From the human T2T-CHM13v2.0 reference genome, Homo sapiens, in NCBI RefSeq assembly GCF_009914755.1, contig NC_060936.1: a stretch of DNA of 64,000 bases; one strand, 5' to 3'. Positions 38,694-61,420 of this stretch are shown here, piece after piece (position 1 is the first letter of the stretch; every line of letters starts with the position of its first letter). The translations under genes and the position numbers were made by a program. The notes beneath the pieces were generated by a model. The model was not told where the DNA came from, ran no database searches, and saw only the letters and a list, made by a program, of their open reading frames with translations.

Positions 38694-38862
38694 CTGCAAA
38701 GGGAAGGTGTAATCTGCCATGTTAAAGACACTGTGCACCAACTTCTTCATTTCTTTCTCCACGATCTCCTCTTTCACTTCTGCTGTCCTTTTCACCTTGC
38801 TGTGCACAGAACTGATGACAGGCTCTTTCCACTGGTACAGCTTGCCACTCACCAGAGCAAAG
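38694..38862 (-). pseudogene. Duplicated P2RX7 exon 2 (open frame, intact splice sites)
   Basis: catttag|C TTT GCT...TTG CAG|gtgaac; 169 nt; FALVSGKLYQWKEPVISSVHSKVKRTAEVKEEIVEKEMKKLVHSVFNMADYTFPLQ versus recalled human P2X7 43-98 FALVSDKLYQRKEPVISSVHTKVKGIAEVKEEIVENGVKKLVHSVFDTADYTFPLQ (46/56 identical). Confidence 0.93.
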
Positions 38863-39131
38863 CTAAATGGCAGGCACAGGAAAGCATCAATGGGAGGCAT
38901 AGCACAGTGGGGTGGGAGGCAGGCTCTGCAGGCCACTTCCGTTCCAATCCTAGCTCGGCTGCATGACTTGCTTCCGTGTGACTCGTTTTCCCTCTCTGCA
39001 CAATGGGAAGCATAATCATACCTGCCTCATGAATTGTGAGGATCAAATGATATATGTCTGCAAACTCCTTTGCCCAGTATCTGGCACATACTGAGCACTC
39101 GCTATAGGAAAGCTGCTGCCCCCAATCTCAT

Positions 39132-42100
39132 TTTTTTTTTTTAAATGGAGTCTTGCTCTGTCGCCCAGGTTGGAGTGCAGTGGTGTGATCTCGGCTCACT
39201 GCAACCTCCGCCCCCTAGGTTGAAGCGATTCTCCTGCCTCAGCATTCTGAGTAGCTGGGATTACAGGCGCACGCCACCACACCAGGCTAATTTTTGTATT
39301 TTTAGTAGAGACAGGATTTCACCATGTTGGGCAGGCTGGTCTTGAACTCCTGACCTCATGATCTGCCTGCCTTGGCCTTCCAAAGTGTTGGGATTACAGG
39401 TGTGAGCCACCATGCCCGGCCCCCAATCCCATTCTTTAACATTGCCTAACATGGACCCTCATGGATAGGACAGCTTCTCAAGTCATAAAGTCCCACTCCA
39501 GTGGGTTCACCAGCTTGCACCTTCTAGTCAAAGGCTGTGTCTGGTGCATTTCCAGAAACACCCACCTGCTTTATCAATAACATTGAAAATGGCAGCTACT
39601 CTTTTTTTTTTTTTTTTTTTTTTTTTGAGATGGAGTCTCACTCTGTCGCCCAGGCTGGAGTGCAGTGCAAGCTCCGCCTCCTAGGTTCATGCCATTCTCC
39701 TGCCTCAGCCTCCCAAGTAGCTGGGACTACAGGTGCCCGCCACCACGCCTGGCTAATTTTTTGTATTTTTTTTTAGTAGAGACGGGGTTTCACCGTATTG
39801 GCTATGATGGTCTCGATCTCCTGACCTCATGATCCGCCCGCCTTGGCCTCCCAAAGTGCTGGGATTACAGGCATGAGCCACCGTGCCCGGCCTTCTTTTT
39901 TTTTTTTTGAGACGGAGTCTCGCTCTGTTGCCCAGGCTGGAGTGTAGTGGCACAATCATAGCTCACTGCAGCCTCCAACTCCTCAGCTCAAGTCGATCCT
40001 CCCACCTCAGCCTCCTGAGTAGCTGGAACTACAGGTGTGTACCACCACGCCTGGCTAATTTCTATTATTTTTTCTAGAAACAGGGGTCTCTTTATGTTGC
40101 CCAGGCTGGTCTCAAACTCATGGCCTCAAGCGATTCTCCACCTCAGCCTCCCAAAATGTTGTGGTTACAGGTGTGAGCCACCACACCAGGCTGCAGGAGC
40201 TACTCTTTATTGGGCACTTAATACGTGCCAAGTGCTCTACATGCAACATCCCCTTTAATCCTCACAACAGTAGGAGATAGTTACTGTGACTGATTACATG
40301 CATGTGCCATCGCGTCCAGCCTAAAGAGTTTGTTTTAAATGCTTTGTTTACTCATTCAGTTTATTTATTTAGTCCCTTCTTTCTGCCCAGCTGCTGAATA
40401 ATATTAGCAAGTCTAAGATGATGGCTGCCCTGTATGAGCTGACCTTGGGAAGCTGAGACAGAGTGGGCCAAGACTCAGCCCCAGCTGTTCTCCACCTTGG
40501 CTATGTAACCACCCAGGGAGCTTTCAAAATTGCAGCTCCCCAGATCCATCCCTGGAGACTATGATTTCGTGAGTCTGGGGAGTTATCCAGATACCTATAT
40601 ATTTGTTAAAAGTTCATGGCTGGGCGCAGTGGCTCACGCCTGTATTCCCAGCACTTTGGGAGGCCAAGGTGGGCGGATCACAAGGTCAGGAGATCAAGAC
40701 CATCCTGGCCAACATGGCGAAACCCTGTCTCTACTAAAAATAGGAAAATTACCTGGGCGTGGTGACACATGCCACCTACTCAGGAGGCTGAGGCAGGAGA
40801 ATCACTTGAAGTCAGGAGGTGGAGGTTGCAGTAAGCCAATATCGTGCCACTGTACTCCAGCCTGATGACAGAGCTAGACTGTCTCAAAAAAAAAAAAAAA
40901 AGTTCCCAGGTGAGACTGGGCACGGTGGCTCACGCCTGTAATCCCAGCACCTTGGGAGGCCGAGGTGGGTGGATCACTCAAGACCAGAAGTTCGAGACCA
41001 GCCTGGCCAACATGGTGAAACTCCATCTCTACTAAAAATACAAAAATTAGCCAGGTTTGGTGGTGTGCACCTATAATCCCAGCTACTCCGGAGGCTGAGG
41101 CAGGAGAATTGCTTGAACCTGGGAGGCAAAGGTTGCAGTGAACCGAGATTGCACCACTGCACTCCAATCTGGGTCACAAAGCAAGACTCTGTCTTGGGGG
41201 GAAAACAAAAAAGTTCCCAGCTGATTCTAATGCATAGCCAGGGCTGAGGACCACTGGGAGGCTCCTGAAAAGATAGCTCATATTTGTCAATAGCAAGTAC
41301 ATTTGAAGAAGAGCATTCCTCATGACCCAGCAATAAAACTCTTATATATGTGCCCTAGAGAAACTCTTGTACATGTGCTGGAGTTATGGGCAAGAATGCT
41401 TCTGCAGCATTGCTTGTAAGAGGGAAAGCAAGACATAACCTAAATGTTCTCAAACAATAAATGGATAAATTGTTGGATTCATACAATGGGATGCTTTGGG
41501 CCAGGCGCGGTGGCTCATGCCTGTAATCCCAGTACTTTGGGAGGCTGAAGCAGGGGAATTGCTTGAGCCCAGGAGTTCGAGACCAGCCTGGACAACAGGA
41601 CAAAACCCTGTCTTGACGAAAAATTCAAAAATTAGCTGGGTGTGGTGGCACGAGCCTGTAGAGATGGAGGCCAAGGTGGGAGGATTGCTTGGGCCCAGGA
41701 GGTCAAGGCTATGGTAAGCTGTGATTGCACCCCTGCACTCCAGCCTGGGCGACAGAGCAAGACCCTGTCTCAAAAAAAATAATAAAATAAAATAATTTTA
41801 AAAATGGGATGCTTTGGAGCAGTGAAAATGAATTAACTAGAGCTGTGCATATCAACATGGAAATAACCTAACACTGAAAAAACAAAGCAAGCTGCAGTGT
41901 GATATAAAGTTTAGAGAAATCCAAAGCCACACCATGTACTCACAACTACCTATTCATGAATGTGCATAGCAGCACTATTCACATAACCCAAATGTTCATC
42001 TATGGATGAATGGATAGGCAAAATGTGGTCTATCCATTCAATGAGATATTATTCAGCCATAAAAAAGGAACAGGGTACTCATACATGCTATTACATCGAT

Positions 42101-43202
42101 GAACCTTGAAAACATTATGTCTGCTACCTCAGAGAGGCTAGTCACAAAAGGCCACACATATTGATTGACTCCATTTATATGAAATACCCAGAATAGGTAA
42201 ATCCATAGAGACAGAGAGTAGATTGGTAGTTGCAGGGGACAGAGGGAGGGAGAAATGGCGAGTGACTACTAATAGGCATGGGGTGTCCTTTTGGGGTGAT
42301 GAAAATGATCTGGAACTAGATGTGGTGGTTGCACACCTCTCTGAAATGCCACTGAACTGTTCATGTTTACAGTGGTTAATTTTGTGTTATATGAACTTCA
42401 CCCCAATAAAAAAGTAAAAATTATATTTTTTACATATGTAGACATATATGTGTTTAGAAATATAAAAACAAACAAGGGAATGACAAATGTCAAATTCAGG
42501 ATTTCGTTTAGAGATGGAGTCTTGCTGTGTTGCCGAGGCTGGAACGCAGTGGCTATTTCACAGGTGCAGTCACAGCACACTACAGCCACAAACTCCTGGG
42601 CTCAAGAGATCCTCCAGTCTCAGCCTCCCAAATAGGTGGGACTGCAGGTGCAGCCACTGTGCCTGGCTGCAGGGTGTTTATAAAGGGAAAGGTCAGAGAA
42701 TGAGATGAAGGATGAGTTTGCAGGGAGCAAAACTGGATTAGTAATGCTTTATTTGTTAAATTGGATGATGGTATGTGGGTGTTACATTATTCACAATACA
42801 TTTTAGTATTTCTATAGCATTTATTTAAAAAGAAAGATTGTCAAGAAAGATGTTGAGCTAAGAGGTAAGAGATCCAGATTTGAGGCCTAATCAGCATATA
42901 TGAGACGAAGCTTTTTTTTTTTTTTTTTGAGACAGAGTCTCCCTCTGTCACCCAGGCTGGAGTGCAGTGGCACTATCTCTGCTCACTGCAGCCTCCATCT
43001 CCTGGGTTCAAGCAATTCTCCTGCCTCAGCCTCCCTAGTATTACAGGCATGCGCCGCCACACCCAGCTATATTTTGTATTTTTAGTAGAGACAGGGTTTC
43101 ACCATGTTGGCCAAGCTGGTCTCGAACTCCTGACTTCAGGTGATCCACCCACCTCAGCCTCCCAAAGTGTTGGGATTACAGGCGTGAGTCACCGTGCCTG
43201 GC
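39132..43202. mobile_element. Alu cluster (39132-39421 -, 39602-39892 -, 39895-40192 -, 40618-40900 +, 40915-41210 +, 41498-41800 +, 42510-42668 - monomer, 42912-43202 -) with MER5 and L1M remnants
   Basis: Alu consensus blocks; L1 3'-end text at 41950-42420. Confidence 0.82.
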
Positions 43203-60690: not shown

Positions 60691-61120
60691 AGGCAGGTGT
60701 TGGTGACCTGAAGTTAAAATACATTTATAAACCTGGTCCTATTCTTCCCAAGCACGGTGACTCAAATGCCAGCCTGATCACCAGGAGTGCCCTGAGATCC
60801 TTGCCTCCTCCCTGGGAATCCAGGATGTTGCCCTGCGCTTTCCCACCTTCCCCAGGCACACCCTGCCCTGCTCTCCCTGGCGGGCCTGGAGTAGATCAGA
60901 AATGAATCCCGCTCGCCTTCCATGGCTTCTCTCTGCTGCAGCCTGGCACCATTTCCTCTTGCCTGATGCTGCTTCCTCCCTCCTGCCCGGTTTGCTGTGA
61001 AAGCACGTCCAAATTTGAAAACCATGTGAGATTCAGAATGTGCACCTGAAGCTGCCCCCTGGGGCTTTCTGTGCTGTCAACCACTGCAGAGATCTGGGGT
61101 CCTCCCTGCATCCCACTTAC

Positions 61121-61242
61121 CTAACATAGGAAAAGACGATCACGTGGAAGAACTTAATGGTGCCATAATTGATGCTTTGGATCCGGGCGACTTTGTTTGT
61201 CTCATACAGGAAAACATCACTGCAGCTGCAGCAGGCTGGCAC
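61121..61242 (-). pseudogene. Duplicated P2RX7 exon 1 coding part (start ATG>GTG, one codon deleted)
   Basis: ggaggctgtaaccGTG CCA GCC TGC TGC...GTT AG|gtaagt; VPACCSCSDVFLYETNKVARIQSINYGTIK-FFHVIVFSYV versus recalled MPACCSCSDVFQYETNKVTRIQSMNYGTIKWFFHVIIFSYV. Confidence 0.93.
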
Positions 61243-61420
61243 GGTTACAGCCTCCCTTCCTGCGCGGGGCTGGACCAGGGCTCAACTCTCCCAGATGGGG
61301 CCACAGCAAGCCCCCTCCCAGTAACTGCAAAATGAAACATACTGATTTTTAGCGGGAGCCTTTAACTTTGAGCTCTTCCAATGACTGTGGAGTGGGGGCG
61401 GGCCCTGGCAGTTGCCCCAG
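61243..61420 (-). promoter_or_regulatory. Duplicated P2RX7 5'UTR and proximal promoter with GC box
   Basis: Minus-strand tttcattttgcagttactgggagggggcttgctgtggccc matches the recalled P2RX7 5'UTR; GGGGGCGGGC at 61394-61403. Confidence 0.7.

What the first reader, a model, noticed from the sequence alone, without database searches (positions are those of the whole stretch)
38694..61420. ~23 kb unprocessed 5' duplicate of P2RX7 sitting upstream of, and co-oriented with, C12orf76
Seen: a P2X7-like 5'UTR/GC box, exon 1 (61242-61121) and exon 2 (38862-38694), both with intact splice signals, separated by 22.3 kb. Known: P2RX7 lies elsewhere on 12q24 and its intron 1 is about 21-22 kb. Inference: this is a segmental (not retro-) duplication, and the whole 38.7-61.4 kb block is copied P2RX7. 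About 18% amino-acid divergence in exon 2 points to an old primate event. It gives the downstream microprotein gene a second, P2RX7-type promoter. This may be partly captured in existing C12orf76 annotations, which I cannot check.
Basis: partly seen in the sequence, partly recalled or inferred. Interest (0 to 1): 0.85.

Follow-up and report, generated by a model that had tools for sequence, protein, structure and literature searches.

The report
P2RX7 5' copy marks inversion breakpoint
A diverged copy of the front end of the immune receptor gene P2RX7 lies upstream of C12orf76 because it is one arm of an inverted duplication flanking an old 11-million-base primate inversion, and its promoter now starts alternative C12orf76 transcripts.

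Summary
Window 61242-61121 and 38862-38694 (minus strand) are copies of P2RX7 exons 1 and 2, with intact splice sites. The 22.3 kb between them aligns collinearly with P2RX7 intron 1 at C12:121.12-121.15 Mb. This is a DNA-level duplication, not a retrocopy.

The block is larger than reported. It runs from 38679 to about 89860, beyond the window, which is 51 kb against 46 kb at P2RX7. It includes about 24 kb of P2RX7 upstream DNA. Only two copies exist in the genome.

Non-Alu divergence is 10.6% (K80 0.115). There are about 25 shared Alus, against 26 private to the window copy and 11 private to the P2RX7 copy.

The copy is a neutrally evolving fragment. ATG has become GTG, a TM1 codon is deleted, and exons 3-13 are absent.

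The two copies sit in inverted orientation at the two breakpoints of a published primate inversion (ANKRD13A|OASL2 and IFT81|P2RX7; Gilbertson 2022). That paper's text and two text-held supplements mention no duplication. The window copy keeps the ancestral linkage to IFT81.

RefSeq starts alternative C12orf76 transcripts in the copied exon 1. These must skip the signal-peptide exon. This is a well-supported, moderately interesting new example of a known kind.

The parts
38679..64000 (-). In-window part of the duplicated block D'. It continues outside the window to about 89860, for 51,182 bp in all. Its counterpart D is C12:121099789-121145747 on the plus strand.
   Evidence: Collinear blastn chain with 52 core blocks. 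19,100 of 25,322 in-window bases are aligned. Non-Alu identity is 89.4% over 27,374 sites.
61335..61654 (-). Copy of the P2RX7 core promoter, with a GC box at 61394-61405.
   Evidence: 36 mismatches in 320 aligned bases (88.7%), no better than the neutral background. The published human P2RX7 active promoter is -158/+32, as cited in PMC3531778 (passages).
61243..61334 (-). Copy of the P2RX7 5'UTR. RefSeq places the start of alternative C12orf76 transcripts at 61334.
   Evidence: Hub annotation. Position 61334 aligns to parent 121123632, with 90.2% identity.
61121..61242 (-). Copy of the P2RX7 exon 1 coding part. The start codon ATG is GTG, one codon (Trp in the parent) is deleted, and the donor GTAAGT is intact. 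A new ATG lies at 61127-61125.
   Evidence: 11 mismatches in 122 bases.
38863..61120 (-). Copy of P2RX7 intron 1 (22,258 bp), carrying both shared and private Alu insertions.
53562..53735 (-). RefSeq alternative exon made from ex-intron-1 DNA. Its AG acceptor and GT donor are present only in this copy; the parent has GG and GG.
   Evidence: Hub annotation.
46686..46861 (-). RefSeq alternative exon made from ex-intron-1 DNA. AG/GT is present in both copies. It holds an ATG in frame with the C12orf76 transmembrane exon in some exon combinations.
   Evidence: Hub annotation.
44886..44993 (-). RefSeq alternative exon made from ex-intron-1 DNA. AG/GT is present in both copies.
   Evidence: Hub annotation.
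38694..38862 (-). Copy of P2RX7 exon 2 with an open frame. It is not an annotated exon here.
   Evidence: 14 mismatches in 169 bases.
38678..38679 (.). Junction J1, the proximal end of the duplication. It lies about 15 bases into the copy of P2RX7 intron 2 and 2,460 bp upstream of the main C12orf76 start site.
   Evidence: The alignment ends here. No P2RX7 homology lies below it.
38041..38678 (+). Truncated LTR-like interspersed repeat abutting J1. It starts with TG at 38041. 5 of 6 other copies examined continue for at least about 360-700 bp beyond the point matching 38678.
36060..36219 (-). C12orf76 first exon with its own promoter. It encodes the start codon and signal peptide and has no acceptor site upstream.
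   Evidence: Hub annotation.
28870..30152 (-). C12orf76 last exon (transmembrane segment and stop codon), shared by all transcripts.
   Evidence: Hub annotation.

Best explanation
**What it is.** Window 38679 to about 89860 (minus strand) is one arm (D') of a roughly 46-51 kb inverted duplication. The other arm (D) is the true 5' end of P2RX7 at C12:121099789-121145747. The two arms sit at the two breakpoints of the roughly 11.07-Mb primate-specific 12q24 inversion. That inversion separated IFT81 from P2RX7 and brought OASL next to P2RX7.

**What each arm holds.** About 24 kb of P2RX7 upstream DNA, the promoter, exon 1, intron 1, exon 2 and 15 bases of intron 2.

**Linkage.** D' stayed joined to IFT81, the ancestral head-to-head neighbour, and now abuts C12orf76. 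D stayed joined to P2RX7 exons 3-13 and now abuts DNA from the OASL2 side.

**Favoured mechanism (inferred, about even odds against the two-step rival).** One rearrangement with breaks about 46 kb apart on the P2RX7 side, staggered or repaired by replication. The stretch between the breaks ended up at both ends of the inverted segment.

**State of the copy.** D' is a neutrally decaying gene fragment and makes no P2X7 protein. Its promoter and exon 1 donor are used as an alternative first exon of C12orf76. That exon splices through exonised ex-intronic DNA to the C12orf76 transmembrane exon and skips the signal-peptide exon.
For: **Shown by computation**
- Collinear homology covers exons, intron and upstream DNA.
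- The arms are in inverted orientation, and only two copies exist in the genome.
- Divergence is uniform across the three sub-regions, 10.5-10.7%.
- Alus are shared in register, with many more private ones. 7 of 15 window-side and 1 of 9 parent-side private insertions have exact flanking direct repeats of at least 10 bp.
- Homology stops at 38679 and does not resume.
- The distal limit is the 5' end of a shared Alu. Beyond it lie 455 bp that are unique in the genome.

**Inversion: seen in a paper and its supplements**
- PMC9142060 passages describe a primate inversion, arising after the bushbaby split, that juxtaposes OASL and P2RX7.
- Its supplementary tables list the mouse breakpoints as 'Ankrd13a | Oasl2, Oasl1' and 'Ift81 | P2rx7'.
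- The same tables give the gene orders Git2-Ankrd13a-4930519G04Rik-Oasl2-Oasl1 and Atp2a2-Ift81-P2rx7-P2rx4.
- PMC7669894 Table 1 puts mouse Ift81 29.4 kb upstream of P2rx7.

**Human layout**
- The hub table places ANKRD13A, C12orf76, the copy and IFT81 in that order.
- OASL is at C12:121013582-121021189.
- An OASL-paralogue relic lies at 121044427-121050360, between OASL and D, as the mouse order predicts.

**Pseudogene state**
- The start codon is GTG and one codon is deleted.
- 9 of the 10 exon-2 amino-acid differences are derived in the copy when judged against three other solved P2X7 sequences, which I recall (not checked) to be panda, rat and mouse.
- dN/dS between the copies is 0.47, and an open frame arises in 51% of neutral simulations.
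- Promoter and exon identity (88.7-91.7%) is no higher than background.

**Promoter use**
- RefSeq alternative exons 61121-61334 and 61121-61221 end exactly at the copied donor site (hub table).
Against: - No outgroup genome could be examined. The single-copy ancestral state and the co-occurrence of duplication and inversion are therefore inferred, not shown.
- The text of PMC9142060 says the breakpoint disrupted Oasl2. Here the recognisable OASL-paralogue relic lies 49 kb from junction J2. Its missing 3' exons would lie on the side away from J2.
- J1 abuts a truncated LTR-like repeat whose remainder is not in the 314 kb examined. The present junction may be secondary, for example a later deletion, and D' may once have reached further into P2RX7.
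- A 46-kb breakpoint duplication is, as I recall and have not checked, longer than those described in Drosophila. PMC1885836 was seen as abstract and outline only.
- There is no matching duplication at the C12orf76/OASL2-side breakpoint.
- Promoter activity rests on the RefSeq annotation only. No expression data were available.
Confidence: 0.82

Rival explanations
1. Two steps. The P2RX7 5' block was first copied, as an ordinary intrachromosomal segmental duplication, into the C12orf76-OASL2 interval in inverted orientation. Later, recombination between the two then nearly identical inverted copies flipped the 11 Mb between them.
For: The final structure is identical to the one observed. Large primate inversions are commonly flanked by inverted segmental duplications (general knowledge; PMC3961182 seen as a search listing only). 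A 46-kb inverted repeat is an efficient recombination substrate. The distal limit lies in an Alu cluster.
Against: It needs two rare events where one suffices. It also requires the first copy to land exactly where the inversion later ends. No third copy or other local duplication suggests a duplication-prone site. Nothing in the sequence of one genome separates this from the one-step model.
Confidence: 0.38
2. An independent segmental duplication, unrelated to the inversion, that happened to insert between C12orf76 and IFT81.
For: Partial gene duplicates are common in primate genomes. The divergence alone does not tie it to the inversion.
Against: Both copies lie exactly at the two published breakpoint intervals and in inverted orientation. 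The window copy is followed by unique DNA and then by IFT81, the ancestral neighbour of P2RX7 (hub table). Such placement by chance in a 3.1-Gb genome is very unlikely.
Confidence: 0.05
3. The copy is a functional coding gene piece. A truncated P2X7 N-terminal peptide (TM1 plus the start of the ectodomain) is made from exons 1-2, explaining the open 97-codon frame.
For: There is no stop codon across the 97 codons of exon 1 plus exon 2, the splice sites are intact, and dN/dS between the copies is 0.47.
Against: - The start codon is GTG, and no in-frame ATG lies in the copied frame of exon 1.
- A Trp codon inside TM1 is deleted.
- 9 of 10 exon-2 changes are derived in the copy.
- 51% of neutral simulations keep the frame open.
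- Exon 2 is not in any listed RefSeq transcript (hub table).
- Exon identity is not above background.
Confidence: 0.03

Closest known systems
Inverted duplications at evolutionary inversion breakpoints (staggered-break model; Ranz et al. 2007, PMC1885836, abstract and outline seen)
   Same: There are two copies of non-repetitive, gene-containing DNA in inverted orientation, one at each end of an inversion fixed between lineages. The duplicated stretch is the DNA next to one ancestral breakpoint.
   Different: Here the inversion is in a primate and spans 11 Mb, with a 46-kb duplication. As I recall, and have not checked, the Drosophila duplications are much shorter. Only one of the two breakpoints is duplicated. 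Recombination between pre-existing copies cannot be excluded.
The OASL-P2RX7 primate inversion (Gilbertson et al. 2022, PMC9142060; passages and two supplementary tables seen, figures not held)
   Same: It is the same rearrangement. The breakpoint gene pairs Ankrd13a|Oasl2 and Ift81|P2rx7 match the positions of the two copies.
   Different: The paper's text and the two supplementary files held as text mention no duplication and no C12orf76. 'duplicat' occurs once, in the reference list, and C12orf76 occurs zero times. This report places the junctions at base level and shows that P2RX7's promoter and exons 1-2 exist twice.
Unprocessed partial gene duplicates whose promoter is captured by a neighbouring gene (chimeric transcripts at segmental duplications)
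   Same: There is a DNA-level copy with introns and a dead coding frame. The promoter and first-exon donor are reused by the downstream gene. New exons arise from former intron DNA.
   Different: Identity is about 88-89%, below the 90% convention of segmental-duplication catalogues (convention recalled). The copy therefore may be absent from such tracks (inference). It also sits in the ancestral upstream context rather than a foreign one.
P2RX7 (P2X purinoceptor 7)
   Same: The N-terminal 97 codons, the promoter GC box, the 5'UTR, the intron 1 length and the splice sites all correspond.
   Different: There is no start codon, one TM1 codon is deleted, exons 3-13 are absent, and 16 of 97 residues are changed.

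Membership tests
P2X receptor gene (Pfam PF00864 / P2RX7) | Sequence similarity to the P2X7 N-terminus | tested here: met
   Exon 1: E 7.5e-19 to human P2X7 residues 1-41. Exon 2: E 1.1e-21 to residues 43-98. PF00864: 27.4 bits against a cut-off of 27.
P2X receptor gene (Pfam PF00864 / P2RX7) | Complete coding gene: start codon, two transmembrane segments, full ectodomain (exons 1-13) | tested here: not met
   GTG replaces ATG and one codon is deleted. No homology to P2RX7 lies beyond 15 bases of intron 2. It is therefore a gene fragment, not a receptor gene.
Unprocessed (DNA-level) segmental duplication | Collinear homology through the intron and flanking non-coding DNA, with no intron loss | tested here: met
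52 collinear blocks from 38679 to about 89860. 75.9% of the finding's interval is aligned.
Unprocessed (DNA-level) segmental duplication | At least 90% identity over at least 1 kb (catalogue convention, recalled) | tested here: not met
   89.4% outside Alus and 87.7% over all aligned columns. The event is older than catalogue duplications.
Inverted duplication flanking an evolutionary inversion | Two copies in opposite orientation on one chromosome | tested here: met
   The window copy is on the minus strand and the P2RX7 copy on the plus strand, 11.07 Mb apart.
Inverted duplication flanking an evolutionary inversion | The copies lie at the two breakpoints of an independently documented inversion | tested here: met
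   Breakpoint gene pairs come from the PMC9142060 supplements. Human positions come from the hub table.
Inverted duplication flanking an evolutionary inversion | Single copy in outgroups that lack the inversion; duplication and inversion arise on the same branch | not testable with these tools
   No other primate or mammal genome is held. Only the divergence (K80 0.115) and the paper's 'after the bushbaby' statement bear on it.
Alternative promoter capture by a neighbouring gene | Transcripts of the neighbour start in the copied first exon and use its donor site | tested here: met
   RefSeq exons 61121-61334 and 61121-61221 end at the copied GTAAGT donor (hub table). This rests on annotation, not on expression data.
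Alternative promoter capture by a neighbouring gene | Measured initiation (CAGE) and an expression pattern like the parent gene | not testable with these tools
   No expression data were available.

The most novel reading that the evidence does not exclude
The 11-Mb inversion and the 46-kb duplication arose in one event. The event left a second, complete copy of P2RX7's ancestral upstream landscape: the whole IFT81-P2RX7 intergenic region, the promoter and any intron 1 enhancers. That landscape now drives primate-specific C12orf76 isoforms. Their start codon and N-terminus come from exonised former P2RX7 intron DNA, fused to the C12orf76 transmembrane segment. The result would be a newly born membrane microprotein isoform expressed like P2RX7. 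The true P2RX7 kept only about 24 kb of its old upstream DNA.
Probability: 0.15. Interest if true: 0.7.

Novelty: new member of a known kind. Interest (0 to 1): 0.5.

Why it matters
- **Base-level breakpoints.** The inversion has been argued to have rewired P2RX7 regulation in human macrophages (PMC9142060). This report gives coordinates for its two junctions and a testable mechanism.
- **What P2RX7 kept.** P2RX7 retained only about 24 kb of its ancestral upstream DNA. A second copy of its promoter, exons 1-2 and intron 1 survives in the ancestral IFT81 context.
- **Practical caution.** Assays aimed at the P2RX7 promoter, exon 1 or intron 1 (PCR, bisulfite, probes, reporter fragments, read mapping at 88-92% identity) have a paralogous target at 110 Mb.
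- **C12orf76 gene model.** It explains the long 5' extension of C12orf76 and shows that its upstream transcripts cannot encode the canonical signal-peptide-bearing microprotein.

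Tried and rejected
- **Retrocopy.** Rejected, because intron and upstream DNA are collinear with the parent.
- **Homology resuming below 38679, past the abutting repeat.** Not found. Of 20 non-Alu hits, the best is 61 bp and none is collinear.
- **A third copy in the genome.** None.
- **A matching duplication at the C12orf76/OASL2-side breakpoint.** None. There are 5 weak non-Alu hits, the best 42 bp.
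- **Two halves of one repeat split between J1 and J2.** The LTR-like repeat at 38041-38678 is truncated; 5 of 6 other copies continue beyond that point. Its remainder is not in the 314 kb fetched, so this test gave no support.
- **Selection on the copy.** Promoter and exon identities (88.7-91.7%) are close to the background of 89.4%. dN/dS and the open frame are uninformative.
- **OAS-domain relics near the junctions.** 23 PF10421 matches, none at 121.03-121.10 Mb or near the window. Only 5'-type OASL-like pieces were found, 49 kb from J2.
- **** used the wrong reading frame for exon 2.
- **** was mis-targeted through my coordinate slip: it searched window 101875-102700, not the distal flank. 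It was redone correctly.
- **Literature.**
  - 37 papers hold 'C12orf76'. Of the 25 listed, 5 were opened at the passages; all are gene lists or a typo.
  - A search for P2RX7 pseudogene, duplication or paralogue found 2 papers. Both match only a 'p2rx7p1...' string; neither was opened, and these are probably array probe names (inference).
  - A search for P2RX7, IFT81, inversion and breakpoint found no description of the duplication.
  - A search for Ankrd13a, Oasl2, Git2 and Oasl1 together found 0 papers.

Full report
**1.

Read on the minus strand, window 61242-61121 gives 40 residues. They match residues 1-41 of solved human P2X7 chains (E 7.5e-19). The first codon is GTG where the parental gene has ATG, and one codon is missing (alignment).

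Window 38861-38694 gives 56 residues without a stop. They match P2X7 residues 43-98 (E 1.1e-21) and just pass the Pfam P2X_receptor cut-off (27.4 against 27 bits). My first translation of exon 2 used the wrong frame.

The exon 1 donor (GTAAGT), the exon 2 acceptor and the exon 2 donor (GTGAAC; parent GTGAGC) are present. The GC box at 61394-61405 is conserved in both copies.

**2. It is a DNA-level duplication, and it is bigger than reported.**

The window's own genome could be searched. Exon 2 with its flanks hits C12:121145470-121145747 on the plus strand at 88%. The remaining matches in that search cover only a repeat at the end of the query.

I fetched 160 kb around that site and 90 kb beyond the window. 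I then chained blastn matches between the window's minus strand and the P2RX7 locus. Fifty-two collinear blocks run from window 38679 (parent 121145747) to about window 89874 (parent 121099774). Outside that span only Alu-to-Alu matches remain.

In the finding's interval, 17,254 of 22,727 bases (75.9%) align. Of the 5,473 unaligned bases, 3,132 are Alu.

The block is 51,182 bp here against about 45,960 bp at P2RX7. It includes about 24 kb (parental length) of DNA upstream of P2RX7 exon 1.

- A 1,151-bp promoter/exon 1 query has only two matches in the genome.
- A 3,581-bp intron piece has only two full-length matches.
- Below 38679 there is no further P2RX7 homology: 20 non-Alu hits, the best 61 bp, none collinear. 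Exons 3-13 are absent.

**3. Age.**

| Measure | Value |
|---|---|
| Aligned non-Alu sites | 27,374 |
| Differences | 2,896 (p 0.106) |
| K80 distance | 0.115 |
| Transition/transversion ratio | 1.95 |
| p outside CpG | 0.094 |
| p in the three sub-regions | 0.105, 0.107, 0.107 |

The even spread across sub-regions argues against recent gene conversion of large tracts.

Alus at least 200 bp long were classed by whether they lie in aligned columns:

| Copy | Shared | Private | Ambiguous | Total |
|---|---|---|---|---|
| Window copy | 25 | 26 | 3 | 54 |
| Parental copy | 25 | 11 | 4 | 40 |

Some stand-alone 'shared' Alus could be independent insertions aligned by the chain. Three Alus, however, lie inside one uninterrupted 3.6-kb block.

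Private Alus are less diverged from the local Alu majority than shared ones. The means are 0.068 and 0.076 for private, against 0.099 and 0.100 for shared. Exact direct repeats of 10-17 bp flank 7 of 15 window-side private insertions and 1 of 9 parent-side ones.

The duplication therefore fell within the period of Alu activity in primates. With recalled lineage rates of about 1.0-1.5e-9 per site per year, K80 0.115 gives roughly 40-60 million years. This is an inference.

**4. The copy is a decaying fragment.**

Sixteen of 97 residues differ. dN/dS between the copies is 0.47, which mixes a constrained parent with a free copy. In 51% of 20,000 neutral simulations the frame stays open.

I compared the copy with three other solved P2X7 sequences, which I recall (not checked) to be panda, rat and mouse. 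By that comparison, 9 of the 10 exon-2 differences are derived in the copy. The deleted codon is a Trp inside the first transmembrane segment, conserved in all chains shown.

Identities are close to the 89.4% background:

| Region | Identity |
|---|---|
| Promoter | 88.7% |
| 5'UTR | 90.2% |
| Exon 1 | 91.0% |
| Exon 2 | 91.7% |

**5. Why it is there.**

Passages of Gilbertson et al. 2022 (PMC9142060) describe a primate inversion, arising after the bushbaby split, that brought OASL next to P2RX7. Its supplementary tables give more detail:

- The mouse breakpoints are 'Ankrd13a | Oasl2, Oasl1' and 'Ift81 | P2rx7'.
- The mouse orders are Git2-Ankrd13a-4930519G04Rik-Oasl2-Oasl1-...-Hnf1a and Atp2a2-Ift81-P2rx7-P2rx4.
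- The human order is HNF1A-C12orf43-OASL-P2RX7-P2RX4.

A mouse BAC paper (PMC7669894, Table 1) puts Ift81 29.4 kb upstream of P2rx7.

In the human window the order is ANKRD13A, C12orf76, the copy, then IFT81 at 112094 (hub table). The human arrangement is thus what results from inverting the mouse-type segment from Oasl2 through the P2rx7 5' end, with that 5' end kept on both sides.

- The window copy lies at the left breakpoint, is inverted, and is still followed by IFT81. Immediately beyond the block lie 455 bp that are unique in the genome.
- The parental copy lies at the right breakpoint, preceded by DNA from the OASL side.
- As the mouse order predicts, an OASL-paralogue relic lies between OASL (121013582-121021189) and the block. 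It has pieces at 121050157-121050360 and 121044427-121044722, with tblastn E 4.7e-12 and 1.2e-8.
- The junctions are 11.07 Mb apart.

The paper's main text contains neither 'C12orf76' nor 'IFT81', and 'duplicat' appears only in a reference. Its two supplementary files held as text list Ift81 only in the gene-order tables and contain no 'C12orf76'. Its figures are not held, so I could not see where its authors drew the breakpoints.

**6. Mechanism.**

Inverted duplications of breakpoint-adjacent DNA are the signature that Ranz et al. 2007 ascribed to staggered breaks (PMC1885836, abstract and outline seen). I favour one event with two breaks about 46 kb apart on the P2RX7 side, but only narrowly.

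The rival is a prior inverted duplication followed by recombination between the copies. It gives the same final structure, and one genome cannot separate the two.

Points against a clean one-step picture:
- The other breakpoint shows no duplication.
- The distal limit coincides with the 5' end of a shared Alu, preceded in the parent by another partial Alu.
- J1 abuts a truncated LTR-like repeat whose remainder I could not find. The present J1 may therefore be secondary.
- The paper says the break disrupted Oasl2, yet the recognisable relic is 49 kb from J2.

**7. What it does now.**

RefSeq lists C12orf76 first exons 61121-61334 and 61121-61221. Both end at the copied donor, and position 61334 aligns to parent 121123632.

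Three further RefSeq exons lie in former intron 1 DNA: 53735-53562, 46861-46686 and 44993-44886. For the first, both splice sites exist only in the copy; the parent has GG and GG.

The canonical 72-residue protein starts in exon 36219-36060, which encodes a signal-peptide-like N-terminus. That exon has no acceptor site. Upstream-promoter transcripts must therefore skip it. They can at most encode different N-termini joined to the transmembrane exon, and several such frames exist on paper. The exact exon combinations of the RefSeq transcripts were not available to me.

**8. Verdict.**

The finding is real and well explained. It adds base-level junctions and a duplication to a published inversion. 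It is a new example of a known kind.

Noticed in passing
window 61125-61127: A new ATG has arisen from the parental ACG, 7 bases before the exon 1 donor. If exon 1 splices directly to the last C12orf76 exon, this ATG is in frame with the transmembrane segment and gives a 30-residue frame. An upstream 25-codon frame precedes it.
   Followed up: partly
window 32117-32230: This RefSeq alternative exon lies inside an Alu-like stretch. A chain match covers 31975-32255, and the exon ends in a typical Alu motif before its donor. It is an exonised Alu outside the duplicated block.
   Followed up: no
C12:121044427-121050360 (L020-L021), minus strand: Relic of an OASL paralogue between OASL and P2RX7. 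Two 5'-type pieces are 37-44% identical to frames in the OASL locus. No OAS1_C-domain exons are present. It is probably the remnant of OASL2 mentioned in PMC9142060.
   Followed up: partly
window 90501-90700 (outside the window; L027:6501-6700): 200 bases match C20:39489794-39489994 at 97% identity. This is far younger than anything around it and may be a recent retrocopy or transduced piece.
   Followed up: no
window 45835-46046 and 77406-77605 (the latter outside the window): Islands where the two copies are 96.5% and 97.5% identical, against 89.4% overall. Binomial P is 2e-4 and 1.4e-5 over about 136 independent windows. They may be conserved regulatory elements kept in both copies.
   Followed up: no
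window 38585-38678: The LTR-like repeat abutting the junction carries a terminal unit of about 90 bp. This unit is tandemly repeated a variable number of times in other genomic copies.
   Followed up: partly
window 70402-90151 (outside the window): The hub's lncRNA LOC105369976 (minus strand) starts about 290 bp beyond the distal end of the duplicated block. It runs through the copied P2RX7 upstream DNA.
   Followed up: no
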